Assembly (NCBI GenBank): GCA_020630215.1
Contig: JAHDBT010000040.1
Span: forward strand, 1 to 18,590
Length of the DNA: 18,590 nt
DNA from: Bacteroidota bacterium
Lineage (GTDB): Bacteria; Bacteroidota; Bacteroidia; Chitinophagales; UBA2359
Reading direction: 5' to 3'
A program made the position numbers and the translations under genes. The notes beneath the pieces are model-generated. The model did not search any database. It saw only the letters and a list, made by a program, of their open reading frames with translations, and was not told the origin of the DNA. Below are positions 120 to 15,100 of this stretch, one piece after another. Within the stretch, counting starts at the first letter, position 1. Each line of letters begins with the position of its first letter.

Positions 120-285
120 TCTTTTAGTACTTTTTTAATGCCGAATATACGTATTGTTTTTTTGTTTGTGGTAAGAATAAGTCAACATTTACTTTTTTAG
201 GAGGGGTTTTGTTCTTGCTAGTTGCACTAGCAAGCCGATATATTAAAAAAAACCCCAAACAATTAGCAACAGCAATATCTATAAC

Positions 286-450
286 TAGCATTATTTCCAA
301 TACAATTGGAAACAACAGTGGGGTAACAGCACCTAATAATTTCCAGTGCAACTGGAAACAACAAACAACTACTGCTGCCAGCATTTCTAGTACAACTGGA
401 AACAATAGTTACAACTACTGCTGCCAGCGTTTCCAGTGCAACTGGAAACA
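286..450. repeat. Tandem array of about 3.5 units of 44-46 bp. Each unit is a 7-bp-stem hairpin TTCCAGT-nCA-ACTGGAA followed by AACAA and, in two units, ACAACTACTGCTGCCAGC.
   Basis: Hairpin cores: ttccaatacaattggaa 286-302, ttccagtgcaactggaa 332-348, ttctagtacaactggaa 376-392 (one stem mismatch), ttccagtgcaactggaa 422-438. Spacing is 46, 44, 46 bp. acaactactgctgccagc is repeated at 356-373 and 401-418. The array lies between the divergent TIR gene and mfd, and ends about 50 bp before the mfd start codon. Confidence 0.75.
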
Positions 451-496
451 ACACAAATTGCAAAACGTTTACAAATTCCGTAACTTTGCTCCTCGC

Positions 497-3400
497 ATGA
501 TGGAACTAAAAAATATCCTACAATTTTACAAAAACGATACTCGTACACAGCAAATCGTATCTAGTAGCCAAATTATGGCGGAGGCACGCATTTTCCTTAA
601 AGGATTGCAAGGTTCCTTGGATGCATTTGTGGCAGCGGCGGTGTATCAATCGGCACCCAAAACGCATATTTTTATTATTGACAATAAGGAGGATGCGGCC
701 TATTTTCAAAATGATTTGAAAAATTTGTTGGAGAAAAAATCGGTCCTGTTTTTTCCTGATTCGTTTAAAAAGCCAGGCTTTTTTGACGACATCAATAAAA
801 GCAATGTGCTGCTGCGTACCGAAACGGCTACGAGGCTTATTCATAGTCATACAACGGGCGAGTTGTTGGTGACTTATCCAGAGGCTTTTTTTGAGAAGAT
901 TGTGAATACTAAAATCCTTAATAAAAATACGATTCACATAAAAAGGGAAGAGGCCCTAGATGTAAATTTTATTGTGGAGGTGCTAGTAGAATATGGTTTT
1001 GAACGAACGGATTTTGTGTATGAACCTGGGCAGTTTTCGGTGCGAGGGGGTATTGTTGATATTTACTCTTTTGGCAACGAACTTCCTTATCGAGTAGAGC
1101 TGTTTGGCGATGAGGTGGAGTCGATTCGAGTATTTGATCCTTTAACGCAATTATCGGAAAAGAAGATAGCGCAGGTAACTATTGTGCCGAATATACAAAC
1201 GCAATTTAGCAGCACCGAAAAAACAAGTCTGTTTAATTTACTGCCCAAAAACACCACTATTTGGGTAAAGGATGTAAAGGCTTTGCTGGAAATTAATCAA
1301 GGTTGCTACGAAAAAGCTTTGCGCCTTGTAGAAAACTTAAAGCAACAAAATCTGCTAGACGAAAATGCTGTTTTTGGTGATGGTACGCCCGATACGTTTA
1401 TCGACTCGAAAAGCTTGTTAGCCGATATGCAGAAATTTTCAATTATCGAGTTTGGCTACAAGCAATATTTTGATAAAGCAACCGTGTTTCCTTATAACTC
1501 AACTTTGCAACCTCGCTTTAATAAAGATTTTACGCTCCTCATTAAAGACTTAAAAAAACGGGAAGCAGAAGGTTGTAAAAATTATATTTTTGCGGGCAAT
1601 CCGAGGCAGGTAAATCGGTTTCGACATATTTTTGAGGATATGGAAGCCAATGTAAAATACGAGGCTTTAACCAACTCTATACACCAGGGTTTTATTGATG
1701 AAGATTTGGGCATTACCTGCTATACCGACCACCAAATTTTTGGGCGGTTTTATAAATACAATATTAAACGTGGCTACTCTAAAGATAAGGCCATTACCAT
1801 CCGCATGTTAAAAAGCCTTCATCCTGGCGATTTTGTTACGCACATCGATCATGGTGTGGGGAAATATGCAGGGCTGGAAAAAATTAATGTGAACGGTAAA
1901 GCGCAGGAGGTGATACGCATTGTGTATCGAGATAATGATATTTTGTTTGTCAATATCAACTCCTTGCACAAGGTATCTAAATATGTTGGCAAGGAAGGTA
2001 AGGCACCTCGTTTAAATAAAATTGGTTCGGAAGCGTGGCAAAATTTAAAGCGCAAAGCCAAAGGCAAAATTAAGGATATTGCCGAAGACCTTATTAAGCT
2101 GTATGCTAAACGAAAAGCAAGTAAAGGTTTTGCTTATTCGCCCGATAGTTATTTGCAAACGGAAATTGAAGCGTCGTTTATTTATGAGGATACGCCCGAC
2201 CAATTAAAGGCTACCATAGCGGTAAAGGAAGATATGGAAGCACCACATCCGATGGACAGATTGGTTTGTGGGGATGTGGGTTTTGGCAAAACAGAAATTG
2301 CACTTCGAGCAGCTACTAAGGCGGTGGCCGATAGCAAGCAGGTGGCCATTTTGGTGCCAACTACTATACTAGCTCTTCAGCATTACGAAACGTTTAAAGA
2401 ACGCCTTAAAGATTTTCCTTGTGAAGTAGATTTTTTAAATCGTTTTAAAACGGCTAAACAAAAAACGGAAACGCTAAAGCTTTTAAAGGAAGGAAAAATT
2501 GACATCCTTATAGGCACTCATGCTTTGCTAGGAAAAAAAGTGGTGTTTAAGGAATTGGGCTTACTGGTAATTGACGAGGAACAAAAATTTGGCGTTGCAG
2601 CAAAAGAAAAACTTCGGAACTTAAAGGTTAATGTGGATACGCTTACCCTCACCGCAACCCCTATACCTCGCACCTTGCAATTTTCGTTGATGAGTGCTAG
2701 GGATTTATCGGTGATGAACACGCCGCCGCCTAACCGACAACCCGTACAAACAGAGCTGATTGCCTTTGATGACGCTAAAATTAGGGATGCGGTTACCTAT
2801 GAAGTTTACCGTGGCGGACAGGTATTTTTTATTCATAACCGAGTAAAAGACCTTATAGAAATTACCGCCATGATTAAACGCCTTTGCCCCGATATTGATA
2901 TAGGGATGGCACACGGACAATTAGACAACAAAACCCTAGAAGAACGCATGATGAAGTTCATAAAAGGGAAGTACGATGTGCTAGTTTGCACCAATATTGT
3001 AGAGTCGGGTTTGGATGTGAGTAATGCCAATACCATTATTATTAACAATGCCCACCATTTTGGTTTAAGCGATTTGCACCAGCTTAGAGGACGGGTAGGA
3101 CGGTCTAACAGAAAAGCGTTTTGTTACCTCATTACCCCACCCATTTACACCCTGCCCGACGATTCTCGTAAACGCCTAAAAGCCATTGAGCAGTTTTCCG
3201 ATTTAGGCAGCGGTTTTCAAATTGCGATGCGTGATTTAGACATTAGGGGTTCGGGCAATATTTTAGGAGGCGAACAAAGTGGCTTTATCAGCGATATTGG
3301 TTTTGATATGTACCAAAAAATCTTGGACGAAGCCATGCAGGAACTTAAAGAAACGGAATTTAAGGACTTGTTTAAAGGACAAATTATTAGTGAGCAAAAG

Positions 3401-3883
3401 TTTGTGCGGGATTGCCAACTCGACACCGATTTAGAATTGCATATACCTGATGAATATGTAAACAGCATTAACGAACGCCTAGGTCTTTACACCGAATTAG
3501 ACAACATTGAAACAGAAGAAAAACTCCAAAAATTTAAAACCGATTTGCTCGATCGATTTGGCACCTTACCCAAACCTGTAGTAGAATTGTTTTACGCTGT
3601 GCGCCTACGGTGGGTCGCTAAAAAATTAGGTTTCGAGCGCATTATTTTTAAGCATAATAAATTGCGGTGTTACTTTGTTGCCAATCAAACTTCTCCTTAT
3701 TACCAATCGGCTTTGTTTACTGGCGTTTTAAAATATCCGCAGCAGCATCCTACAAAAGCCCACTTTAAACAAACGGATAAAAACTTTTTGTTGGTAATGG
3801 AAAATGTTAAAACCATGAAAGCGGCTAGAGAGGTATTGTTAGAAATTGAAGCTTTTGCTGGTAGTATGACTAGTGTGGTTTAG
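497..3883 (+). CDS. mfd: Transcription-repair coupling factor Mfd (TRCF), 1128 aa
   Basis: SF2 helicase motifs are diagnostic of Mfd: LVCGDVGFGKTEIALRAA (motif I), LLVIDEEQKFGV (motif II), TLTATPIPRTL (motif III), QLRGRVGRS (motif VI), plus a C-terminal TRCF-like region. The length from ATG 497/500 (MMELKNILQFYKND) is typical. The track ORF from 209 is an artefact: the upstream repeat array simply has no in-frame stop. Confidence 0.95.
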   Translation: MMELKNILQFYKNDTRTQQIVSSSQIMAEARIFLKGLQGSLDAFVAAAVYQSAPKTHIFIIDNKEDAAYFQNDLKNLLEKKSVLFFPDSFKKPGFFDDINKSNVLLRTETATRLIHSHTTGELLVTYPEAFFEKIVNTKILNKNTIHIKREEALDVNFIVEVLVEYGFERTDFVYEPGQFSVRGGIVDIYSFGNELPYRVELFGDEVESIRVFDPLTQLSEKKIAQVTIVPNIQTQFSSTEKTSLFNLLPKNTTIWVKDVKALLEINQGCYEKALRLVENLKQQNLLDENAVFGDGTPDTFIDSKSLLADMQKFSIIEFGYKQYFDKATVFPYNSTLQPRFNKDFTLLIKDLKKREAEGCKNYIFAGNPRQVNRFRHIFEDMEANVKYEALTNSIHQGFIDEDLGITCYTDHQIFGRFYKYNIKRGYSKDKAITIRMLKSLHPGDFVTHIDHGVGKYAGLEKINVNGKAQEVIRIVYRDNDILFVNINSLHKVSKYVGKEGKAPRLNKIGSEAWQNLKRKAKGKIKDIAEDLIKLYAKRKASKGFAYSPDSYLQTEIEASFIYEDTPDQLKATIAVKEDMEAPHPMDRLVCGDVGFGKTEIALRAATKAVADSKQVAILVPTTILALQHYETFKERLKDFPCEVDFLNRFKTAKQKTETLKLLKEGKIDILIGTHALLGKKVVFKELGLLVIDEEQKFGVAAKEKLRNLKVNVDTLTLTATPIPRTLQFSLMSARDLSVMNTPPPNRQPVQTELIAFDDAKIRDAVTYEVYRGGQVFFIHNRVKDLIEITAMIKRLCPDIDIGMAHGQLDNKTLEERMMKFIKGKYDVLVCTNIVESGLDVSNANTIIINNAHHFGLSDLHQLRGRVGRSNRKAFCYLITPPIYTLPDDSRKRLKAIEQFSDLGSGFQIAMRDLDIRGSGNILGGEQSGFISDIGFDMYQKILDEAMQELKETEFKDLFKGQIISEQKFVRDCQLDTDLELHIPDEYVNSINERLGLYTELDNIETEEKLQKFKTDLLDRFGTLPKPVVELFYAVRLRWVAKKLGFERIIFKHNKLRCYFVANQTSPYYQSALFTGVLKYPQQHPTKAHFKQTDKNFLLVMENVKTMKAAREVLLEIEAFAGSMTSVV

Positions 3884-4365: not shown

Positions 4366-4830
4366 ATGAATGAGAATTTACATTTATCAAACCAGCCCCA
4401 TCAACTTGTAACGATACGTGCCGTCAACCAAGGACTTGTATTTGGCGTAGCAGCAGCACATTTTATGTTGCTTTACTTTTTTATTCTCTTGCTTTTTAAC
4501 ATCAACACTCTACCTTGGCATATTGTGGGCAAAATAGTTGTATTGTTAGGCGTTATGTACTACGCTTATGCTAGTTACAAAGAAAACCGCAAAGAAATGA
4601 GCCTAAAAAGTGGTATTAAATTGGGCTTGTCTACGGCATTCGCCGCCGCTGCAACTTTAGTTTTTTTCGAGTTAATTGTACACCTTGTTTTTGGTTTTAA
4701 TTTAGCTCCCGAAACTACTTTTGCACAGGGTTTACCTACCTATGCTATGTTTGGTTTACTAGCACTAGAGTTAATGGCTTATGGCGGCTTAATTGCTATT
4801 TTGTTTACATTATATTATCGAGGAAAATAA
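4366..4830 (+). CDS. Small integral membrane protein with 4 predicted TM helices. A DUF4199-like Bacteroidota family is possible but unverified.
   Basis: The 154-aa ORF has four hydrophobic stretches of 19-22 residues: LVFGVAAAHFMLLYFFILLLF, IVGKIVVLLGVMYYAYASY, LGLSTAFAAAATLVFFELIVHLVF, FGLLALELMAYGGLIAILFTLYY. The N-terminus is hydrophilic. A long upstream intergenic region precedes it. Confidence 0.7.
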   Translation: MNENLHLSNQPHQLVTIRAVNQGLVFGVAAAHFMLLYFFILLLFNINTLPWHIVGKIVVLLGVMYYAYASYKENRKEMSLKSGIKLGLSTAFAAAATLVFFELIVHLVFGFNLAPETTFAQGLPTYAMFGLLALELMAYGGLIAILFTLYYRGK

Positions 4831-5143: not shown

Positions 5144-5422
5144 GTGCAAAAATTTTTCTTTAAAATCAGGCATTTATGCTCCGTCCCTAAACCTTACAAA
5201 TTGTACCTCAATCCTAGCACAAATAATAATTTGGTAAACTTAATAATAGAAAATGGGAAAAGTATGACGATGCAGCTTTTTGATATATCTGGACGAATAC
5301 TAAACCAGCAAAAAATCACACAAAACACACAAATAGATTTAAACAGCTACAGACAAGGCATTTACTTCCTTCGGCTTGAAATTGATGGCATTACACATAA
5401 GGAAAAAATGATAAGATTTTAG
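5144..5422 (+). pseudogene. Stand-alone T9SS C-terminal sorting domain (CTD) with no cargo domain: probable remnant of a T9SS substrate gene
   Basis: The 92-aa ORF ends ...YLNPSTNNNLVNLIIENGKSMTMQLFDISGRILNQQKITQNTQIDLNSYRQGIYFLRLEIDGITHKEKMIRF. That is the canonical Por-secretion CTD pattern (NP(S/A)T, LYD(L/I)SGR, GxYFxRL, K-I-hydrophobic end). The frame is closed by TAG/TAA immediately upstream (5138-5143). It opens only with GTG, and the CTD homology begins before the first in-frame ATG. No upstream domain is encoded. Confidence 0.5.
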
Positions 5423-5571
5423 GCGATTGTCTATAACAAATAACTAGTAATATAAAGATAACACCTCTCGTTTTCACAGGATTAAGTGCTTGATTTACAA
5501 TTTATTAGTCGCTTAAATGCATATTGATTAATTGTTATATTTAGTGGCATTGTAATTGTTGCAAATTGCTT

Positions 5572-7530
5572 ATGTTCGGGTATATTTCTAGAAACATTTA
5601 CTATAAGTATTTAATACCGTTGTTATTACTCATGGCTATGGCGGTACTTTTAGGCTTTATTGCTATTTCGATATTGGTAGCTAATAATATTGAAAATACG
5701 GGTATTGCGTTAAAGGAGGGCGAAGTTATGCGTATGTCTAAAGAGATACTCGTTAAACATCAACATGCCATCCAAACGCACAATGATGCTTTTGTGCAAA
5801 ACATTGAAAACACCAAATACAGCCTTAAAGCATTTACTAATTATTATGCCTTCAAATCGCTCCGTATTGCCAAGATGAGGACTTATGCAGACCAAACTGT
5901 ACGATACAATAATCAGCTACTAGAAATAGCGTTGTTTGATAAAAAAGGCAAGGAAGTTTTTAGCCATTGTTTATCGGAAAAACCTTTTGCTGCTGATTTA
6001 AAAGATTGTAGCCCACAGTATTTAATGGAGCAACTCCCTCCCAAAACGGCTTATATTTCTAAGGTGTTTTTTGATAAAACACAGCAACGTAGTTACCTGT
6101 ATATTGGTTATCTTATTAACCATATTAACGGGAAAAACCAATTTAGTTTGCTAGCCAAAGTAGCCCTAGATAATATTACCGAAACCATTGCCAACAAAAC
6201 GGTTAATCAACAAGGACGTATGTTTTTAGTGGATTATGAGCAGCAAATTTTGTTTGAAAATCCTAGTACCGAAAAAGCCTATCGCTACCAAAACCTCCCT
6301 GTAGATGTAAAAGCCAATATCATTCAGTATCCAGATACAACTATTTGGAATAAAGCATATTTATTATCTACGGCAACCAATCAATATGGATGGACAACGG
6401 TTTATTATACGCCTCATGCTTTGGCTTATCAAGCTATTAAAGAACGGGTAAGTAGCCTTTCGGAAATGTTTGGTACTACTCGCCAAAACATTTTACTTTT
6501 TTCGGTACTCGCTATTTTGTTAATTGTTTCCTTCGCTACTTTTGCAGGTGTTAAAGTTGCCAAGTCTATTACCAATCCTATTTTAAAATTGATACATGCA
6601 ACTAGGGATGTTGCTAGAGGAAATTTTCAGGTAACTATTCAGCGAGAAACACAAGATGAAGTTGGCGAATTAGCAGAATCGTTTACCAATATGACTTGGG
6701 CCATCCAAAAATACCAAGAGGAATTACTAGAACGTACTCGCTTAATTGAAATACAAGCGCAACAACTTACTGCCTCTAATGAAGACCTCGAACGTTATGC
6801 ACATACTGTTTCGCACGATTTAAAAGAACCGCTGCGGATGGTAAATGGTTATGTGAAATTAATGCACAAAAAATTGGAGCATCAATTAGATTCTGAGACA
6901 AAGGAATACATGGACTTTGCAATGGATGGCACACAACGAATGTCGAGAATTATTAATGACTTACTCGCTTATGCTCGCTTTGAGGAAAAATCTAAAAGGC
7001 AAAAATTTGAAGCCGTTGACCTAAACGATATTATCGCCATTGTAAAAAAAGACTTGCTGTTTTTAACCAAAGAACACGAAGCACAAATAGGCATTATTCC
7101 CGATAAACTGCCTGTAATAAAAGGCAAATTTACCCAAATACATCAGTTGTTTCAAAATGTAATTGCCAATGCCATTAAATACCGAAGAGCTGCCAATCCA
7201 ATTATTAAAATAGATGCCATTTTAAAGGACAACACCTGCGAAATAATTATTATTGACAATGGGCGAGGCATTGCAAAAGCAGATATTCCTAAAGTGTTTA
7301 TGCCCTTTAAACGCCTAGTAGCTAGGCAAGAGGTAGAAGGCAGTGGTATTGGTTTGGCTACGGTTAAAAAAATTATGGATCATCATAATGGCAACATCAA
7401 AATTGAATCAGAAGTAGGCATAGGCACTACTTTTTATTTTACTTTTGAAGCGGCAACTAAACTTCCTACGCCTCCTAGCAAGGTTAATAAAAAGGAAAAA
7501 AAAACAAACACTATTCTTAGGAAGGAATAA
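5572..7530 (+). CDS. Two-TM sensor histidine kinase with a periplasmic sensor domain, HAMP, HisKA and HATPase_c. No response regulator is encoded in the window.
   Basis: TM1 is LIPLLLLMAMAVLLGFIAISILVA, followed by about 270 aa of extracytoplasmic region. TM2 is LLFSVLAILLIVSFATFAGV. The HAMP-like region is ILKLIHATRDVARGNFQ...VGELAESFTNMTWAI. The H-box is HTVSHDLKEPLRMV, the N-box IANAIKY, the G1 box IIIDNGRGI and the G2 box GSGIGLATVKKIMDHH. There is an alternative TTG start at 5566. Confidence 0.9.
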   Translation: MFGYISRNIYYKYLIPLLLLMAMAVLLGFIAISILVANNIENTGIALKEGEVMRMSKEILVKHQHAIQTHNDAFVQNIENTKYSLKAFTNYYAFKSLRIAKMRTYADQTVRYNNQLLEIALFDKKGKEVFSHCLSEKPFAADLKDCSPQYLMEQLPPKTAYISKVFFDKTQQRSYLYIGYLINHINGKNQFSLLAKVALDNITETIANKTVNQQGRMFLVDYEQQILFENPSTEKAYRYQNLPVDVKANIIQYPDTTIWNKAYLLSTATNQYGWTTVYYTPHALAYQAIKERVSSLSEMFGTTRQNILLFSVLAILLIVSFATFAGVKVAKSITNPILKLIHATRDVARGNFQVTIQRETQDEVGELAESFTNMTWAIQKYQEELLERTRLIEIQAQQLTASNEDLERYAHTVSHDLKEPLRMVNGYVKLMHKKLEHQLDSETKEYMDFAMDGTQRMSRIINDLLAYARFEEKSKRQKFEAVDLNDIIAIVKKDLLFLTKEHEAQIGIIPDKLPVIKGKFTQIHQLFQNVIANAIKYRRAANPIIKIDAILKDNTCEIIIIDNGRGIAKADIPKVFMPFKRLVARQEVEGSGIGLATVKKIMDHHNGNIKIESEVGIGTTFYFTFEAATKLPTPPSKVNKKEKKTNTILRKE

Positions 7531-7599: not shown

Positions 7600-9339
7600 A
7601 TGTATTCCTTCAGCAATCAACTCGTACAAGCCCAAGCTCCTCCTCGAACACCTCATTTTCATATACTCCCACACTATAATATTCAACCCTATAATCCCAG
7701 TATTTCCTACAATGCCCAACTGGTAGTGCCTACAGGATACGATGCCGCATTTATTTATCGGCAACAACTAAGAGATGTATTTGAACCAGGTCAACATCAT
7801 TTAAATGAAGCTACGCTTCCTCAACTTGCGAAGAGCCAAGAATGGCATATTGAACGACCTAAAACTTTTCAATCCGATCTTATTTTTATTAATACTAAGC
7901 CCATTACTTTCCAATGGGCTGTTACAGCTCCAGTGCTCTGTTATTATCCATCTGCATCTACTAAACCTCACCAAAGCCATTCCGAAGAAGCGACCTTTAT
8001 TTATGTAGGCGGCCAATACCAGTTTCAAATTGAAAACATTGCCACTTTTATAAAACAAACCGAGCTTAATTTTCGCCTGCATACATCTGACGAAATAGCA
8101 CAAACAATTGGTGATACGGTGCATCATGCTGCTCAAAACACTACCCAAACTTATGCCTTTGCCGCCGAAAATTTACTAGCAGATAATAGCCATTTCAAAC
8201 AACAAGTTACCCAGCAACTCCTTTCCTTATTTACCGAATATGGAATGCGCTTAAACCATTTTTCCGTTGATGATATTCGTTGGCGCAGTAAATATATAGA
8301 TGTTAATTTTCCTTATATTGATACTGCTAACCAAACCCTTAATTGTTGGAAATGCAAAGCTAAACTGCCCCGTATCCAAAATAGAAAATACTTTAGCTTT
8401 AAAGAGTGTAATCATTGCGAACAGTATTACCGCCTTAACGAACGCCAACTTTACCTAGATAAACAGGGAACTTGGCAGCCTGTTGCAAAAGATAATTACG
8501 ATACAGGTACACAGGTTAATTCCCTCCATCATTTTCACCTTAACAATTGTAAGGAATGCAATTTGGCAACCCTCATTCCTCCAGCAAAAACCCAGAGCAC
8601 TTGTAGCTATTGTGACAAACCTCAACTAATAGCAACAGTAAATAGCATTGATGAAAAAATTAGTCCTACGCATATTGTGCCCTTTAAAATAGATAAAGAC
8701 CGTGCGGCACTCACTTTTTTATATTGGTTAGACGAACAAAAAAATCTGCCTAATAAAGTCATTCATTACGCCAAAGAAAACTATACGATTAAAGGCATTT
8801 TTGTTCCTTGCATTATGGCTAATATACGTAGCTACACTTATTTTAAAGGCAAAAAAGGAATTCCTCAATTTCCCGAAAAGAAAAACAGCATCGTGGCTTG
8901 GTATAATCGGGAGGGCATAACTCATCTATCTTTTAATAAACAAAAAACTTTTGCGAGTCAGCTTATACCCAAGCATCAACTAGATTTATTAGCCGATTTT
9001 TTAAATATAGATTTAGTCGCTTTTAATAGTACTCACCTACAACATAAAGCTGTAGAAACCTACGAAACAACACTGCGAATACCACTTAAAGATATGCTTC
9101 AAAATATTGACGTTTTAATAACAACCGCTATACAGAAAAAAATAGGCAGCAAACACCAAGAAATAACCGAAACTTTCACGACTTTTAATAATTCAACCAT
9201 TAAATTTGTATTGGCTCCTGTTTGGATAATCGAATTTGAATACCATACCAAAAGTTTTCAATACCTAATAGGCGGTAACCACGGAAAATTAATTACCACC
9301 AAACAACCCAGCTTAATGGGCTTGTTATTGGGTAAGTGA
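7600..9339 (+). CDS. Uncharacterized 579-aa protein (paralog A). N-terminal SPFH/band-7-like domain, two zinc ribbons (C249/C252/C270/C273 and C317/C320/C335/C338), conserved C-terminal domain of unknown function. No TM segment.
   Basis: Residues about 38-228 follow the prohibitin/stomatin fold pattern. VVPTGYDAAFIYRQQLRDVFEPGQHHL matches the SPFH start VPxGxxxVVxRFGKxxRxLxPGLHF. The domain ends LFTEYGMRLNHFSVDDIRW, matching GIxVxxVxIxDI. Zinc-ribbon motifs are CWKC...CNHC and CKEC...CSYC. Long blocks are identical to paralog B (NYTIKGIFVP, SPTHI, AVETYE, PVWII). Confidence 0.85.
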   Translation: MYSFSNQLVQAQAPPRTPHFHILPHYNIQPYNPSISYNAQLVVPTGYDAAFIYRQQLRDVFEPGQHHLNEATLPQLAKSQEWHIERPKTFQSDLIFINTKPITFQWAVTAPVLCYYPSASTKPHQSHSEEATFIYVGGQYQFQIENIATFIKQTELNFRLHTSDEIAQTIGDTVHHAAQNTTQTYAFAAENLLADNSHFKQQVTQQLLSLFTEYGMRLNHFSVDDIRWRSKYIDVNFPYIDTANQTLNCWKCKAKLPRIQNRKYFSFKECNHCEQYYRLNERQLYLDKQGTWQPVAKDNYDTGTQVNSLHHFHLNNCKECNLATLIPPAKTQSTCSYCDKPQLIATVNSIDEKISPTHIVPFKIDKDRAALTFLYWLDEQKNLPNKVIHYAKENYTIKGIFVPCIMANIRSYTYFKGKKGIPQFPEKKNSIVAWYNREGITHLSFNKQKTFASQLIPKHQLDLLADFLNIDLVAFNSTHLQHKAVETYETTLRIPLKDMLQNIDVLITTAIQKKIGSKHQEITETFTTFNNSTIKFVLAPVWIIEFEYHTKSFQYLIGGNHGKLITTKQPSLMGLLLGK

Positions 9340-9520
9340 AATGAAAAAAATAAAGTCCACCAAGAAATTTAATTATATTTTTCAAGGCAAGGCGTAAAAC
9401 GCAGTCATAGCGGGCTATGACGAGTATTTACAACGCCGCATTGGGAAATAGAATAAATTAAATTGGTGGAGGTTATTTTTTCTCATTCACTAAGTGGTTT
9501 AAGAAGTGATAGAAAAAAAT

Positions 9521-9528
9521 TACCTTTG
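9521..9528 (+). promoter_or_regulatory. Candidate Bacteroidota sigma-A -7 element TACCTTTG (TAnnTTTG consensus) upstream of paralog B
   Basis: Exact match to TAnnTTTG, 78 bp upstream of ATG 9606, in the 266-bp A-B intergenic gap. No clear -33 TTTG partner was found. A second near-match, taccttTT, is at 9583-9590. Confidence 0.25.
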
Positions 9529-9605
9529 CAAAAGATGTCGAAAAAATAAACATCGAAAAATCTGAAAATCCAAAAGTCTAAATACCTTTTAAATAGAATA
9601 TACCT

Positions 9606-11357
9606 ATGGGCTTATTCGATAATGAAATCATAAAACCAGATCTAGAAAATAAATCCAACAATTTATTTTACCTACCTGATTATAAAAACTGGCTTCTCCC
9701 CAACAGCATTAAATACGATGCTAAATTGCAAGTGCCACAAAGTACCGAAGCCATTTTTATTACCAAACAACAACCCGCCGATGTTTTTACGGCTGGCGAA
9801 TACCTCCTCAATTTCGATACGCTTCCTAAGCTATCGGATATTCAGCGATGGTATAATAATGCGCCTAGCTCGTTTAAAGCCAAATTATACTTTGTTGATA
9901 AAAGCACTTTTGAAGTGCAATGGCAAGTTAATTATCCGATGTTGGTATACAAACGAAACAGCAATGCTTCAACGGATAGGATTGTTCGCCTGAATGATCG
10001 GCTAACACACCTACAACTTGCAGGGGTCTACGATTTTCATATTGCAGATACGACTACTTTTGTTCAAAAAATGGGTATGCACCTCGAATCGCTTAAACCG
10101 AGGCTGGTAATGAAAAAATTGGAAAAACTAGGCAATCAAATTATCTTTAACTTTTTAGAACAATACGAATTTACTTCCGAAACGTTGCTAGGAGATAACT
10201 CGCAATTTAATGCCAACATACAAGCAGAAATGAAACGAGTGTTCGCATTGTATGGCATTGAATTAGAACGTTTTGCATTACAAAGCAGTCGTTGTGGAAC
10301 AGGACAGGAAAACCTTGACCTTCCGTTGGTACATCCACAAAATGAGGGTATTTATTGCTGGTCTTGCCAACATGCACTGCTCGACCCTAAAGGCATGAAA
10401 CGCTTTAGTGTAACCGATTGCGATTACTGCGACCAAACCTATCGCTTTGTAGATACTAAAGGTTTTTTTGATAAAAGAGCCGTTTACCAAGCCACACCTA
10501 AAAATGCCAGTTCCGCAGGGCCAGGAGTGAGCAAACTCCAACATTTTAACGCAATGACCTGTCCTAATTGCCGCCGCTTTTCTATCATCCCCCCCGAAAA
10601 AAAGGAAGATCATTGTACGCAATGCAACAATCCGCAATTAATAGATACTTTGTATTCGCTAGGGGCAAAAGCAAGCCCTACGCATATTGCTCCTTTTCAA
10701 AAAAGCAGACGTGATGCCGAGCTTATTTTTTCAGAGTGGCTGAGTAGCGTTACTTTGTTATCGAAAAAAACCCGTAATTACATTAAGGACAATTATACTA
10801 TTAAAGGGATATTTGTGCCTGTCTTAATATACGATTTACAAAGCTACACCTACTTTCATGGTCAACGAGGCATTAGGTATCGACGTGGCGATAACACCTA
10901 TACCGATTGGACTCCTGTAAAAGGACAAGACCATTTGGCCTTTAATAAACAAACTGCTTTTACCAGCAATCAAGTTGCTCCAAAACACCTAAAAGCCCTC
11001 AACGATTTTTTTACTACCGACCTCCTCACTTTTAGCAGCAAGCACATTCAACAGCACGCCGTAGAAACCTACGAAGCTCCTATTGATGCCACGATGAATA
11101 ATGTACTAGGACAATTTACGCCTTATATTGCACGCTCTATTAAAAGAAAAATTGGCGGCGACCGACAACAAATTGATAAATCGTTTACCTCCCTCAACAA
11201 CTCCAAAATTCGTTTTGCCTTAGTACCCGTTTGGATTATTAATTGCGATTATAGCGGCACGCAATACGAGTATGTAATTGGTGGAAGAAAAGGTAAACTC
11301 GTGGCAATTAAACATGAAGTGGAAGTGTTGCGTAAAATTTGGGATTGGTTTAGTTAG
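9606..11357 (+). CDS. Uncharacterized 583-aa protein (paralog B). Same SPFH-like, double zinc ribbon and C-terminal domain architecture as 7600-9339.
   Basis: Colinear with paralog A along its whole length. LQVPQSTEAIFITKQQPADVFTAGEYL aligns with LVVPTGYDAAFIYRQQLRDVFEPGQHHL. Zinc-ribbon cysteines are at 251/254/272/275 and 319/322/337/340, offset by +2 from A. Identical blocks: NYTIKGIFVP, SPTHIAPF, HAVETYE, LVPVWII, IGG.KGKL. Confidence 0.85.
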   Translation: MGLFDNEIIKPDLENKSNNLFYLPDYKNWLLPNSIKYDAKLQVPQSTEAIFITKQQPADVFTAGEYLLNFDTLPKLSDIQRWYNNAPSSFKAKLYFVDKSTFEVQWQVNYPMLVYKRNSNASTDRIVRLNDRLTHLQLAGVYDFHIADTTTFVQKMGMHLESLKPRLVMKKLEKLGNQIIFNFLEQYEFTSETLLGDNSQFNANIQAEMKRVFALYGIELERFALQSSRCGTGQENLDLPLVHPQNEGIYCWSCQHALLDPKGMKRFSVTDCDYCDQTYRFVDTKGFFDKRAVYQATPKNASSAGPGVSKLQHFNAMTCPNCRRFSIIPPEKKEDHCTQCNNPQLIDTLYSLGAKASPTHIAPFQKSRRDAELIFSEWLSSVTLLSKKTRNYIKDNYTIKGIFVPVLIYDLQSYTYFHGQRGIRYRRGDNTYTDWTPVKGQDHLAFNKQTAFTSNQVAPKHLKALNDFFTTDLLTFSSKHIQQHAVETYEAPIDATMNNVLGQFTPYIARSIKRKIGGDRQQIDKSFTSLNNSKIRFALVPVWIINCDYSGTQYEYVIGGRKGKLVAIKHEVEVLRKIWDWFS

Positions 11358-11610
11358 TTTTTTTCTAGTAGCGGGTACATGGTAATTGGTATTTAGACGG
11401 CTACGCTTCGTTGTTTTAATTTATGTTGATATTGTAGTCCCTACCATAGGCTTCTGCACTATTTTGTTTTTCGGTTACTATTTGTAGTCGAAGTGTTAGG
11501 TGAGCTCTTAGCTTTACTCTCAAATCACGATGGTAAGTAATAACATTTTTTGTAGTATTGCCTAGTGATTAAACGAACTAAAGTTGGTTCTACATTATCT
11601 CCCAAAAGGC

Positions 11611-11648
11611 AAAAAAAAGCCCCTTTCAAATTTGTTATTGAAAGGGGC
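11611..11648 (-). terminator. Repeat-borne intrinsic terminator copy 1 (minus strand)
   Basis: Perfect 11-bp stem gcccctttcaa (11619-11629) / ttgaaaggggc (11638-11648). 8-nt A-run 11611-11618 on plus, equal to 8 U on minus. Confidence 0.5.
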
Positions 11649-11772
11649 AAAGTTCCCAAATTACCCAAATGTTCCCGGAGCAAACGGTTGTTTTTTTGTA
11701 ACCGCCAACTATACATTTTGGAGGGTGTTTTTTGGTAAAAATCTACTATTTTTAAAGCTTTATTTTGGGAGG

Positions 11773-11809
11773 AAAAAGCCCCTTTTAAGTTTGCACTAAT
11801 AAAAGGGGC
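11773..11809 (-). terminator. Repeat-borne intrinsic terminator copy 2 (minus strand)
   Basis: Perfect 10-bp stem gcccctttta (11778-11787) / taaaaggggc (11800-11809). A-run 11773-11777. The ninth stem pair is T:A, where copy 3 has C:G. Confidence 0.5.
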
Positions 11810-11930
11810 AGAGTTCCCAAATTACCCAAATGTTCCCGGAGCAAACGGTTGTTTTTTGTAACCGCCAACTATACATTTAAGGTAGTCTTTTGGTAAAAAT
11901 CTACTATTTTCAAAGCTTAACTTTGGGGAG

Positions 11931-11967
11931 AAAAAGCCCCTTTCAAGTTCGCACTAATGAAAGGGGC
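11931..11967 (-). terminator. Repeat-borne intrinsic terminator copy 3 (minus strand)
   Basis: Perfect 10-bp stem gcccctttca (11936-11945) / tgaaaggggc (11958-11967). A-run 11931-11935 on plus, equal to a U-run after the hairpin on minus. Confidence 0.5.
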
Positions 11968-12087
11968 AGGGTTCCCAAATTACCCAAATGTTCCCGGAGC
12001 AAACGGTTGTTTTTTGTAACCGCCAACTATACATTTAAAGGTAGTCTTTTGGTAAAAATTTTGTATTTCAAATTTTAATTTGGGAGG

Positions 12088-12124
12088 AAAAAGCCCCTTT
12101 CAAGTTTGCACTAATAAAAGGGGC
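12088..12124 (-). terminator. Rho-independent terminator of the giant T9SS cargo gene, 48 bp past its stop
   Basis: On the minus strand: gccccuuuua (RC of 12115-12124), 12-nt loop, ugaaaggggc (RC of 12093-12102), then uuuuu (RC of 12088-12092). The stem has one G-U wobble on the minus strand. On the plus strand the same position would be a C-A mismatch. Confidence 0.65.
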
Positions 12125-12171
12125 AAAGTTCCCAAATTACCCAAATGTTCCCGATGCTAACGACTGGTCAA

Positions 12172-15100
12172 TTACTTGTCAACCGCCAACATTACATTAG
12201 AGATGATTTTGTGCTTTGCGTTTAATTGGTAAAAATAAATTCCTGCAGAAAGTTCCCCACGCTTGAACACAACTCTATTTTTACCTTCCACTCCTACTTT
12301 GCTGGTACTGAACACTTTACGACCATCTACAGCAAATACATTAAGGGTGTATTCCGAGGCTTCTTCTAGGGCAAAAAATATCACAGTTTCGTCATTAAAT
12401 GGGTTTGGATAGTTGCTAATCGTCCCTGCATTCAATATATTTTCGGTTGGAGCGTTGGCGTTTTTAAAGCGTACATCGCTAATATTTAATTCAAATGGCA
12501 TACTGCCTGTTTCGCTACTTGCACCGCTAATGGTAAACACAACCGATTGTACATCACTTCGATCAAACATATTTCCTGTTTCGCTTACTAAATCGCCCAA
12601 CCAAATTTCGTGTATGGTTGATGAGGTACTTAATGGCACTTGAATTTTAAATTGTTCATCCCAGTTGTTAATTCCTGCTTTTGCAACGGTTACCGTCATA
12701 ATTTGAGGTCCTTCTACTTCAGCAGTAAATGCTAGCACATTGTAATTGCTTACATCGGCACTTGCGCTACGAGGACGCAGGTTACGCACTACTGATAAAT
12801 AAGAGCCTACCGTACCTGTTAACTCCACATTTCGCTCTACAATCATATCGTCGCTATTGTGGTCGTCGAGGTTGGTGATGTATGGGCTTACTTCATAGCT
12901 GTCAATTTGTGTGCTGCTAGGCGTTTCTGTAAACCAGGTTCCGTCGGCACTGTAAATAACATCTACTTGCGAGTTCACATTGTTTTTTACATTAAAGCCA
13001 ATATCGTATACACTGCCTAAATCTAAAACAACTTCTTCTTGTGCTGCGCCACTTAAAGCAATTACTTCTTCAAATTGTTGGCGTTCTTCTGTTTCGGTTG
13101 TTTTGTAAGTACCTCTTAAAGTTACTTCTGTAGCATTGTTGTTGTTCTGGATATTGAGGTTTAACTTCCCTTTGTTGTAATTCCCTTTGCGTACATACAC
13201 CTCTGGAATAGTTGGTGCATCGTTATTGGCATATACAAGTCCAGTCGTTTCCTCTTTCATCAAGTCCAACACACGTATCATTAAGTCTTCGGCTAAATCT
13301 AAAGTAGAAGACCATACTTGGAAATTAAAGTTAACAGGCAATTCGTCGTAATCTTCTAAGTCCCAACGGTTGTCGATATATAATCCACCATAGCCGCCTG
13401 AGTGTGCGGTAAAGCTGATGCCATATTCTACGGTTCCATCTGGTTGTTCTAGTACGTAGTAAATAAATGGTTGGTATTGGATGTTGATGTGTCCAATGTC
13501 GGTTAAAGTAGCACCGCTAAAACGGTCGCAAATAACTTTAGTGTGTTCGTACACTTGGTCGTAGGTAGACAAAGCTAAGATGGCTCCGTAGCGTTCTTCG
13601 CCCGAGAAATAATCTACTGCAAAAACTTCTTCGGCATTGGTAATATCAATTAAGTCTGCTGGTGTAGAAATGTAGGCCTGCGAATCGTACATGCCTTTTT
13701 CTGGAATAAATTTAATCAAATCAGAAATACCCGATTTTTGGTTGGCTTTAGCTGCCTCCGATTGTATGGTTTGTATGTCTCCTTTGCGTGCTGCTTTTTC
13801 GGTAAACTTTATCAGTTGTTCTTTTTCAATATTTTTAGTATTACTTGTTCTTCTTTGTTGGTATTTTCTTTTAGCAATTTTAGATGCTAAATCACCATTA
13901 CTTTCTAAGCCAGCCGTTTTACCCGAACCCGAACCAAAACATTGCGAGAAGTAAAACTCATCTTCCTTAGAAGTAACCAATACCCCACAAGTTTCGCCAC
14001 TCGATACACAGGTTGCTTGTATCTCAGTTAAGGTTTGCGCTTTAAATAAAGATACATCACATCCTACTAAAACGGTATCAACCTCAAAATCAATGTCCCA
14101 TATCATTGTATCCTGCGTTGGAATGCCATCTGCAAAAAACCAATCTAAGCGAGTAATGCCATCTAACACTTCAATAGTTGGTTCTGTGGTGCTAGGAATG
14201 TATTGTGTAAAGTTACTGCTGCCTTCTATGTAGGCATATCCTTTAGGTAAGGTTAAGTAGTAGTGATCTCTGCTCGAAGTTGGGTCGCCTGTTTCTGGTG
14301 TTTTATTTAACATCATGATGGTAAACTGGCTACGACTGCTAGTATCTTGCGCCATAAGCGGTGCATAAATTTGCTCGTAATCTAAAGCAGCATTTAAGCG
14401 GATAGGCAATGTTGCATCTGCAGCCGAGTACAAAGGTTCTCCACAAGTACCATCGGCATTAGAAATAAATTGTAGCGAACCACCTGAAATAAATCCACAA
14501 GCAGTTGCTAATTTTACACTTACTAAGTACTCGTTGGCAGGACGTTCGGCATAAGGACGTAAACCATTTGCTTCCAAGCCCGCTACAATACCCGAAATGT
14601 CCCAACGGAAAAGACGCTCACTAATTGGCGTAGGTTCTACGTCGTAAACCGTACCCATGTATTCTACTTTTGAGTAGCCTTCAATAATATCTAAGTTAGA
14701 GCCTAATGGTAATAATAAGTCGAAGCTTAAATTTCTAGCAACACCTGGGTCTCTATTAGAAACCGATACCGTATAATCAAACTCCTCACATAAATCGGTG
14801 TAAGTATACGATTTGTTTACAATGGCTGTTTGTACCTCTGGCACAACAGGGTCTAGCATTAATGTTGTTCTAAACACTTGGCAAGGGTTAGCAGCTACCG
14901 AACTAGGATAGGCATCACATCCACCCCAACCTGCAACAATATCAAATTCACGTTGTTGACAAATATTATAGGTGTAGTAAAAACGTAAATCTACATAATC
15001 GTCTGCTTGTCCTAAAAAGCCATACTCCCAAAAATCGTTGTTAAGTGTTAACCAAACGTTATCTGTAATATTGTAAACCGAATCAACGATAATATAGCCA

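What the first reader, a model, noticed from the sequence alone, without database searches (positions are those of the whole stretch)
7600..11357. Tandem paralog pair: soluble SPFH-like domain fused to two zinc ribbons and an unplaceable C-terminal domain
Two adjacent same-strand genes of 579 and 583 aa are colinear end to end. In each:
- Residues about 40-230 follow the SPFH/band-7 pattern. Canonical SPFH proteins have an N-terminal TM anchor. These do not, and are predicted soluble.
- The SPFH-like region is followed by two CxxC-n17-CxxC zinc ribbons. All 8 Cys sit at equivalent positions in A and B (A: 249/252/270/273 and 317/320/335/338; B: 251/254/272/275 and 319/322/337/340).
- The C-terminal roughly 220 aa are shared. 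Identical blocks (SPTHI.PF, NYTIKGIFVP, H.AVETYE, .PVWII....Y......Y.IGG..GKL) sit within otherwise roughly 30-35% identity. That pattern suggests purifying selection on a functional core.

I know of no described family that combines SPFH, a double zinc ribbon and this C-terminal domain. SPFH scaffolds usually oligomerise, so an A/B hetero-oligomer is plausible. Paralog A alone has a Pro/His-rich N-terminal tail. Sitting between a T9SS cargo locus and an orphan histidine kinase, this is the best candidate in the window for an undescribed module.
Basis: partly seen in the sequence, partly recalled or inferred. Interest (0 to 1): 0.8.

Follow-up and report, generated by a model that had tools for sequence, protein, structure and literature searches.

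The report
Fused SPFH–SamG-like stress-scaffold gene pair
Two neighbouring genes each join, in one protein, two parts that other bacteria make as separate neighbouring proteins (an SPFH scaffold like Bacillus YdjI/SamI and its zinc-ribbon membrane partner YdjG/SamG), so this is a rare fused, anchor-less variant of a known module, not a new one.

Summary
ORFs 7600-9339 (579 aa) and 9606-11357 (583 aa) are colinear paralogs (35% identity, E 6e-128). Both have an N-terminal SPFH domain (Pfam PF13421 Band_7_1, E about 1e-20), eight cysteines at the stated positions, and no transmembrane segment.

The "unplaceable" C-terminal domain and the two zinc ribbons together form a homolog of a large family of roughly 350-380 aa tail-anchored proteins. 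That family includes B. subtilis YdjG/SamG (hhalign probability 100, E 7e-42). It has been described in the literature as two zinc ribbons, a YpeB-related domain and a TM segment. The SPFH half belongs to the YdjI/SamI family.

In 56 of 66 informative metagenomic loci, and in annotated Vibrio, Tsukamurella and Desulfatibacillum replicons, a Band_7_1 SPFH gene lies just upstream of the YdjG-like gene. That is the same order as the domains here.

So A and B are tandem copies of one gene fusion of two known operon partners. Both lack the C-terminal membrane anchor present in 118 of 120 stand-alone relatives. I found no other fusion, and both proteins are singletons among about 15 billion sequences. 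Verdict: a new variant of a known kind, of moderate interest.

The parts
7600..9339 (+). Gene A (579 aa): fusion of a SamI/YdjI-like SPFH domain and a SamG/YdjG-like unit, with no TM
   Evidence: ORF. Pfam hits. Family alignments. An identical protein is encoded on a separately assembled Logan contig, L001.
7681..8277 (+). A, SPFH domain (residues 28-226)
   Evidence: PF13421 Band_7_1: E 7.1e-21, 75.2 bits, profile positions 4-193 of 211. It scores 71.7 bits against an HMM built from SPFH partners of stand-alone YdjG-like genes.
8344..8418 (+). A, zinc ribbon 1 (C249, C252, C270, C273)
   Evidence: Positions confirmed. The columns are conserved in the YdjG-like family.
8548..8613 (+). A, zinc ribbon 2 (C317, C320, C335, C338)
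   Evidence: Positions confirmed. All four Cys columns are invariant in 122 sequences.
8653..9303 (+). A, YdjG-type C-terminal domain (about residues 352-568), YpeB/PepSY-like
   Evidence: Profile search. Alignments. hhalign against YdjG.
9304..9336 (+). A, truncated tail ...KQPSLMGLLLGK, where relatives have a TM helix
   Evidence: Only a 7-residue hydrophobic stub is left, and no hydrophobic continuation exists in any frame after the stop.
9606..11357 (+). Gene B (583 aa): paralog of A with the same fused architecture
9702..10283 (+). B, SPFH domain (residues 33-226)
   Evidence: PF13421: E 2.6e-20, 73.4 bits. BLASTP against YdjI gives E 3e-6.
10356..10430 (+). B, zinc ribbon 1 (C251, C254, C272, C275)
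10560..10625 (+). B, zinc ribbon 2 (C319, C322, C337, C340)
   Evidence: BLASTP against YdjG starts at this ribbon.
10665..11315 (+). B, YdjG-type C-terminal domain (about residues 354-570)
11316..11354 (+). B, C-terminal amphipathic helix (…HEVEVLRKIWDWFS) in place of the family's TM helix
   Evidence: AF2 predicts a helix at the C-terminus. The hydrophobic moment is 0.74, in the top 0.5% of 11-mers in A and B.
11335..11385 (+). +1-frame reading KFGIGLVSFFLVAGTW* overlapping the end of B: a possible remnant of the tail anchor, or an indel in the AAAATTTGGG run
   Evidence: Off-frame stretches like this occur near about 3.8% of sites per frame, so this is only suggestive.
5566..7530 (+). Context: membrane histidine kinase (HAMP-HisKA-HATPase_c) ending 69 bp upstream of A on the same strand
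   Evidence: No terminator-like site on the + strand before A.

Best explanation
Shown. Each gene encodes a single-chain fusion of two proteins that are normally separate and encoded side by side.
- The N-terminal half is a TM-less SPFH scaffold of the Band_7_1 / YdjI (SamI) type.
- The C-terminal half is a YdjG (SamG)-type protein: two zinc ribbons followed by a YpeB/PepSY-like alpha+beta domain.
- The fusion junction is the same in A and B, and they share 19 derived residues at positions that are otherwise conserved in the family. This points to one fusion event followed by a tandem duplication that has since diverged to 35% identity.
- Both copies lack the C-terminal transmembrane tail anchor that nearly all stand-alone relatives carry.

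Inferred.
- The fusion hard-wires a contact that in other bacteria forms between two polypeptides: the SamG-like partner docking the soluble SPFH protein under the cytoplasmic membrane.
- Like other SPFH proteins, A and B probably assemble into an oligomer, possibly mixed A/B, on the cytoplasmic side.
- Without a TM helix, any membrane contact would be peripheral and reversible. It could go through B's amphipathic Trp-rich C-terminal helix or through another membrane protein, for which the kinase just upstream is the obvious candidate.
- The likely role is envelope or membrane stress sensing or scaffolding, by analogy with SamGHI in B. subtilis.
For: - SPFH half: PF13421 at 75 and 73 bits against a cut-off of 24.
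- C-terminal half: a profile of residues 240 to the end of A and B finds 1982 proteins (E<=1e-3) among 1.84 billion representatives. After A and B themselves, nearly all of the 148 other listed hits are 300-420 aa and cover both ribbons and the domain; a few are longer.
- Alignments show the shared motifs and conserved Cys.
- YdjG taken from a Bacillus pspA-ydjGHI locus matches the family profile with hhalign probability 100, E 7e-42. It matches B directly at E 2e-13.
- Gene neighbourhood: in 80 metagenomic loci of stand-alone members, a Band_7_1-type SPFH gene lies upstream on the same strand in 56 of the 66 loci with enough flank. 46 of these are directly adjacent. The same pair is annotated in Desulfatibacillum, Phaeobacter, Vibrio with a 3-bp gap and Tsukamurella.
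- TM loss: 118 of 120 stand-alone members have a C-terminal hydrophobic helix. A and B have none.
- B. subtilis experiments: YdjG and YdjH are required for membrane recruitment of soluble YdjI and of PspA (PMC8581546). SamI restrains SamGH signalling (bioRxiv 10.64898/2026.02.06.704340).
- B's tail is amphipathic.
Against: - No PspA or TPM/YdjH-like gene is in the window, so the Bacillus four-gene system is not reproduced here.
- A and B are very divergent members. They keep only 45 and 44 of the 104 columns that are at least 90% conserved in stand-alone relatives. Their function may therefore have shifted.
- Published two-hybrid data show YdjG-YdjH and YdjH-YdjI contacts, but no direct YdjG-YdjI contact is reported there. 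The direct contact is inferred here from the fusion and from adjacency.
- Oligomerisation, membrane association and the link to the kinase are untested.
- B's true C-terminus is uncertain, because a one-base indel would restore a hydrophobic tail.
Confidence: 0.6

Rival explanations
1. The genes encode ordinary tail-anchored membrane proteins, and the missing TM helix is an assembly or sequencing error. Alternatively it is a very recent frameshift at the 3' ends, at least for B.
For: In B, the +1 frame starting at the AAAATTTGGG run reads RKFGIGLVSFFLVAGTW*. This hydrophobic stretch sits within about two residues of where relatives start their TM helix. Its 15-residue hydropathy mean is 1.81.
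Against: - A shows no hydrophobic continuation in any frame after its stop.
- A's sequence is reproduced exactly on a separately assembled Logan contig.
- Off-frame hydrophobic stretches near a given site are not rare in this AT-rich DNA, at about 3.8% per frame.
- The stretch has only 15-16 hydrophobic residues, and its 19-residue mean is 1.53, below 1.6.
- B's in-frame tail is itself a well-formed amphipathic helix.
Confidence: 0.12
2. The pair is decaying: a fused, anchor-less relic of an SPFH/YdjG-like operon that no longer functions.
For: Loss of the anchor. Loss of more than half of the family's highly conserved residues. Both proteins are singletons in a collection of about 15 billion proteins. 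A neighbouring gene fragment (an ORF at 5144-5422 that is only a T9SS sorting domain) shows some local gene decay.
Against: - Both ORFs are intact over about 580 codons despite having diverged to 35% identity. Unconstrained sequence would not stay open that long.
- All eight Cys and 24 family-invariant columns are kept in both copies.
- Identity is highest (42%) in the C-terminal domain, with long identical blocks.
- 19 derived residues are shared by both copies, which suggests a new constraint rather than drift.
Confidence: 0.08
3. The fusion proteins have been re-purposed as cytoplasmic accessory or scaffold subunits of the upstream histidine kinase. They would form a three-gene signalling unit unrelated to PspA-type membrane repair.
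For: - The kinase (HAMP-HisKA-HATPase_c) ends 69 bp before A on the same strand, with no terminator-like site between them.
- In Desulfatibacillum, a kinase and a sigma-54 response regulator lie directly upstream of the SPFH/YdjG-like pair.
- SamI is proposed to restrain signalling by its membrane partners.
- From my own knowledge, not checked here: B. subtilis flotillins support the sensor kinase KinC.
Against: A kinase is not a recurrent neighbour in the 80 metagenomic loci. The recurrent extra neighbours there are XpaC-like, TelA and DUF2927 genes. There is no response regulator in the window. Adjacency in one genome is weak evidence.
Confidence: 0.15
4. One reading: an undescribed module whose C-terminal domain belongs to no known family.
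For: No Pfam, NCBIfam or PADLOC model covers the C-terminal 240 aa. No solved structure matches by sequence.
Against: The region belongs to a family with thousands of members. That family includes the experimentally studied YdjG/SamG, and its domain content has been published.
Confidence: 0.03

Closest known systems
B. subtilis YdjI/SamI (SPFH, Pfam PF13421 Band_7_1; COG4260-type soluble SPFH proteins)
   Same: Same Pfam family. No TM anchor. Similar N-terminal start motif. BLASTP of B against YdjI gives E 3e-6. Functionally tied to a YdjG-type partner.
   Different: YdjI ends in a low-complexity linker and its own single zinc ribbon. The common SPFH partners in other phyla end in a GYF_2 domain. 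In A and B that tail is replaced by a whole YdjG-like protein. A and B score only about 70-75 bits, against 230-340 bits for YdjI and the usual partners.
B. subtilis YdjG/SamG and the 'TFIIB-type zinc finger domain-containing protein' family (often mis-named 'primosomal protein N'')
   Same: Two zinc ribbons with the same Cys columns. The same roughly 220-aa domain, with shared P-F, W, G-x-x-P, E-x-Y, IGG-x-Q and L-x-P-x-W motifs. hhalign probability 100.
   Different: Stand-alone members are 340-400 aa and end in a TM helix in 118 of 120 cases. A and B lack that helix and carry an SPFH domain in front. They have also lost near-invariant motifs such as PYWTYD, FDD, FKH and NGQTG.
pspA-ydjGHI (pspA-samGHI) envelope-stress operon of Bacillus
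   Same: It contains both halves of the fusion as separate genes. Experiments there show that the SPFH protein depends on YdjG and YdjH to reach the membrane (PMC8581546).
   Different: No pspA and no TPM-domain ydjH are detectable in the window. The gene order in Bacillus is G-H-I, whereas the domain order here (SPFH first) matches the two-gene SPFH then YdjG-like operons of other phyla.
Membrane-anchored SPFH proteins (HflK/C, flotillins FloA/FloT, stomatin, prohibitin)
   Same: SPFH fold family. A and B would be expected to oligomerise as scaffolds, as these proteins do.
   Different: These proteins bind the membrane on their own through an N-terminal TM helix or hairpin. A and B have none. 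PF01145 matches A and B only weakly.
YpeB / PepSY-type domains (PDB 5boi, 7abw, 2gu3)
   Different: About 10% identity over only 71-101 aligned residues. There is no sequence-level relationship, and Foldseek finds nothing significant.

Membership tests
SPFH / Band_7_1 (PF13421) | Profile match above Pfam's gathering score over most of the domain | tested here: met
   A scores 75.2 bits and B 73.4 bits against a cut-off of 24, covering profile positions 4-193 and 9-191 of 211.
SPFH / Band_7_1 (PF13421) | Prohibitin-like fold of the N-terminal half | tested here: inconclusive
   The only full-length model was made without an alignment and failed (mean pLDDT 30). The fold is inferred from the profile match only.
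SPFH / Band_7_1 (PF13421) | No intrinsic membrane anchor (as in YdjI) | tested here: met
   The hydropathy maximum is 1.03 in A and 0.88 in B. YdjI is described as soluble in PMC8581546.
YdjG/SamG-like family | Two N-terminal CxxC...CxxC zinc ribbons in conserved columns | tested here: met
   Six Cys columns are invariant and two are at least 90% conserved in 122 sequences that include A and B. Zinc binding itself was not tested.
YdjG/SamG-like family | The family's roughly 220-aa alpha+beta domain after the ribbons | tested here: met
   Profile hits. hhalign against YdjG gives probability 100, E 7e-42. BLASTP gives E 2e-13. Confident AF2 model.
YdjG/SamG-like family | C-terminal transmembrane tail anchor | tested here: not met
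   Present in 118 of 120 stand-alone members and absent in A and B. B has a possible off-frame remnant.
YdjG/SamG-like family | Genetic linkage to a Band_7_1 SPFH gene | tested here: met
   Present in 56 of 66 informative loci. Here the linkage is a covalent fusion.
PspA-SamGHI (pspA-ydjGHI) system | Adjacent pspA (ESCRT-III-like) gene | tested here: not met
   phmmer with Bacillus PspA finds nothing in the window ORFs at E<=1. The rest of the genome is not available.
PspA-SamGHI (pspA-ydjGHI) system | TPM-domain membrane protein YdjH/SamH | tested here: not met
   phmmer with YdjH finds nothing in the window. Pfam scans of the neighbouring genes show no TPM domain.
Canonical membrane-anchored SPFH proteins (HflK/C, flotillin, stomatin) | N-terminal TM helix or membrane hairpin | tested here: not met
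   No hydrophobic segment anywhere in A or B.
Known anti-phage defence systems | Match to a PADLOC model | tested here: not met
   Only a 10-bit hit at E 0.08 for B, and none for A.

The most novel reading that the evidence does not exclude
The fusion is a natural 'Rosetta stone'. It would show that Band_7_1 SPFH proteins bind the cytoplasmic domain of SamG-type partners directly, one to one. In this lineage the pair would have become an anchor-less A/B hetero-oligomeric SPFH assembly. That assembly would reach the membrane only conditionally, through B's amphipathic C-terminal helix or through the upstream sensor kinase. It would be a reversible, PspA-independent version of an SPFH stress scaffold.
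Probability: 0.25. Interest if true: 0.5.

Novelty: new variant of a known kind. Interest (0 to 1): 0.38.

Why it matters
SamG, SamH and SamI are only now being worked out in B. subtilis, and how the soluble SPFH protein is docked is still open. Published two-hybrid data link YdjI to YdjH rather than to YdjG.

Two results here argue for a direct SPFH-to-SamG contact and for a core module that needs neither PspA nor SamH:
- a covalent SPFH::SamG-like fusion;
- the two genes are adjacent, in the same order, in most loci sampled. They include Pseudomonadota, Desulfobacterota and Actinomycetota genomes.

The anchor-less, duplicated form also offers a naturally soluble version of the complex that could be easier to purify and solve. 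It does not reveal a new kind of system.

Tried and rejected
- Word-index protein searches with A alone and with the A+B profile returned only A itself.
- A metagenome scan and a viral scan with the A+B alignment found no relatives. The patterns the tool chose were poor.
- B and the 154-aa neighbour are not in the gene-position index, so neither the source genome nor an independent check of B's 3' end could be obtained.
- A single-sequence AlphaFold run of full-length B was useless (mean pLDDT 30) and cost one of the two jobs. No full-length or A+B model could therefore be made.
- The afdb50 Foldseek library was unavailable. Foldseek against the PDB gave nothing significant. Its faint hits to beta-pore-forming toxins (E at least 0.04, TM about 0.1) probably reflect the long beta-hairpin in the model and were rejected.
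- PADLOC and NCBIfam gave nothing. The weak matches to coronavirus ORF3a/viroporin (E 0.01-0.1) fall on the Cys-rich linker and were rejected as chance.
- Rfam found nothing in the window.
- I considered that ribbon 1 might come from the SPFH protein's own C-terminal ribbon, as in YdjI. I rejected this because both ribbons align with ribbons 1 and 2 of stand-alone YdjG-like proteins.
- I considered a conserved kinase linkage. It is not supported by neighbour clustering in the 80 loci.

Full report
**1. The observation**

The window has two same-strand ORFs at 7600..9339 (579 aa, A) and 9606..11357 (583 aa, B). They align end to end at 35% identity over 571 residues with five gaps, E 6e-128.

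The first unit is CxxC-n17-CxxC. The second is CxxC-n14-CxxC, not n17.

Identity is 28% in the first 235 residues, 32% in the ribbon region and 42% in the last 234 residues.

Neither protein has a hydrophobic segment that could span a membrane. The best 19-residue Kyte-Doolittle means are 1.03 and 0.88.

A's 'Pro/His-rich tail' lies in a stretch that aligns without gaps to B's N-terminus. Its start resembles that of YdjI. It is a compositional quirk, not an extra segment.

**2. The N-terminal half**

Both proteins match Pfam PF13421 (Band_7_1) at 75 and 73 bits against a gathering score of 24, over about 190 of 211 profile positions. PF01145 matches more weakly.

PF13421 is the subfamily of B. 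subtilis YdjI/SamI. That protein is soluble and has to be recruited to the membrane by other proteins (PMC8581546). A TM-less SPFH is therefore expected for this subfamily, not an anomaly.

**3. The C-terminal half**

Pfam, NCBIfam, PADLOC and a PDB sequence search give nothing for the last 240 residues.

A profile of residues 240 to the end of A and B was searched against 1.84 billion cluster representatives. It found 1982 proteins at E<=1e-3 and 614 at E<=1e-10.
- Apart from A and B (689 and 683 bits), the best hits score at most 118 bits.
- Most are 300-420 aa, with a few longer.
- They match from the first or second ribbon through to the end of the domain.

Alignment shows shared motifs, and in the stand-alone proteins a C-terminal hydrophobic helix. 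A second search with that alignment returned 2509 members. Sources name them 'TFIIB-type zinc finger domain-containing protein' or, wrongly, 'primosomal protein N''.

I retrieved a Bacillus pspA-ydjGHI locus with the published ydjG primer sequence.
- YdjG matches the family profile with hhalign probability 100, E 7e-42.
- YdjG matches B directly: B 319-583 against YdjG 56-320, E 2e-13.

Six of the eight Cys columns are invariant and two are at least 90% conserved in 122 sequences.

**4. The two halves are normally neighbouring genes**
- In Desulfatibacillum, a Band_7_1+GYF_2 gene sits directly upstream of the YdjG-like gene.
- In Phaeobacter, it is one gene away.
- A metagenome scan returned 80 loci of stand-alone members. 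An SPFH HMM built from five seeds finds an SPFH gene upstream on the same strand in 56 of the 66 loci with enough upstream sequence. 46 of these are immediately adjacent (gaps of 15-371 bp), 10 loci lack it, and 14 are too short to judge. These 80 loci are the best matches to one query, so they are a biased sample.
- tblastn of B against plasmids and chromids gives colinear two-piece matches over adjacent 'SPFH domain-containing protein' and 'hypothetical protein' genes in Vibrio coralliilyticus (3-bp gap), Tsukamurella and Paracoccus.

The gene order, SPFH then YdjG-like, is the domain order in A and B.

No ORF in the 80 loci matches both HMMs. None of the seven long hits that I scanned with Pfam (475-603 aa) has an SPFH domain. 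A and B are singleton clusters among about 15 billion proteins. As far as I could search, the fusion is unique.

**5. What is special here**
- Fusion: the junction is the same in both copies, so there was one fusion event before the duplication.
- Anchor loss: 118 of 120 stand-alone members have a C-terminal TM helix and A and B do not. A ends in a 7-residue hydrophobic stub, with nothing hydrophobic after the stop in any frame. B ends in an amphipathic, Trp-rich helix: AF2 predicts a helix, and the hydrophobic moment is 0.74, in the top 0.5% of 11-mers in A and B.
- Divergence: A and B keep only 45 and 44 of the 104 columns that are at least 90% conserved in relatives, but share 19 derived residues.
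- Caveat: a +1 reading from an AAAATTTGGG run near B's end gives KFGIGLVSFFLVAGTW*, at the position of the family's TM helix. Such off-frame stretches occur near about 3.8% of sites per frame. I could not check this against an independent assembly.

**6. Context**

The genes in the window, in order:
- Mfd (209-3883);
- an unassigned 154-aa ORF;
- a 92-aa ORF that is only a T9SS sorting domain;
- a HAMP-HisKA-HATPase_c kinase (5566-7530) ending 69 bp before A;
- A, then B;
- a 158-nt tandem repeat array;
- a convergent 2021-aa T9SS cargo gene.

GC content is even, at 33-42%. No PspA or TPM/YdjH homolog is found in the window or in the 80 loci, using phmmer with the Bacillus proteins.

In eight of the metagenomic loci, XpaC-like, TelA and DUF2927 genes precede the pair. 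This fits an envelope or toxic-ion stress setting. A kinase is not a recurrent neighbour in the 80 metagenomic loci.

**7. Mechanism**

Shown: domain identities, the fusion, the anchor loss and the duplication.

Inferred, partly from B. subtilis work (YdjG/YdjH needed to bring YdjI and PspA to the membrane; SamI restraining SamGH signalling):
- the fusion fixes a direct SPFH-to-SamG-type contact;
- A and B form an SPFH-type oligomer on the cytoplasmic side;
- membrane contact is peripheral, through B's amphipathic helix or through a partner such as the upstream kinase;
- the role lies in membrane or envelope stress sensing or scaffolding.

I put about 0.9 on the identity part and about 0.4 on the mechanistic part.

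**8. Verdict**

The 'unplaceable domain' and 'undescribed module' claims are not supported. This is a rare, duplicated, anchor-less fusion of two known operon partners: a new variant of a known kind. Its main value is as Rosetta-stone evidence for how SamI-type SPFH proteins meet SamG-type partners, and as a possibly soluble form of that complex. Interest is moderate (0.38).

Noticed in passing
window 11614-12212: Tandem array of about 3.4-4 copies of a 158-nt unit (89% matches). It lies in the convergent gap between B and the 2021-aa T9SS cargo gene. Each unit carries a GCCCCTTT...AAAGGGGC hairpin that looks like a terminator on the minus strand. The last copy overlaps the 3' end of the cargo ORF. 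No Rfam match.
   Followed up: partly
window 5144-5422 (+): A 92-aa ORF that consists only of a T9SS C-terminal sorting domain (Por_Secre_tail, E 3e-10). It looks like a detached fragment of a cargo gene. The preceding 154-aa ORF (4366-4830) has no family match.
   Followed up: no
window 11335-11385 (+1 frame relative to B): An off-frame reading KFGIGLVSFFLVAGTW* sits at the place where relatives have their membrane anchor, next to an AAAATTTGGG run. It could be a remnant, a sequencing indel or chance.
   Followed up: partly
L071:1304-5916, L085:2216-3469, L005:1027-5363: In eight metagenomic loci and in Phaeobacter, the SPFH/YdjG-like pair is preceded by XpaC-like (Halogen_Hydrol), TelA and DUF2927 genes on the same strand. 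This suggests a larger stress-related gene cluster in some lineages.
   Followed up: partly
L002:1567-7065: In Desulfatibacillum, a histidine kinase and a sigma-54 response regulator lie directly upstream of the SPFH/YdjG-like pair. This echoes the kinase upstream of A in the window. It is not recurrent in the other loci examined.
   Followed up: partly
L090:1-3015: On the Vibrio coralliilyticus plasmid, the SPFH/YdjG-like pair sits next to a divergently oriented TIR-domain protein gene and two hypothetical genes. The meaning is unknown.
   Followed up: no
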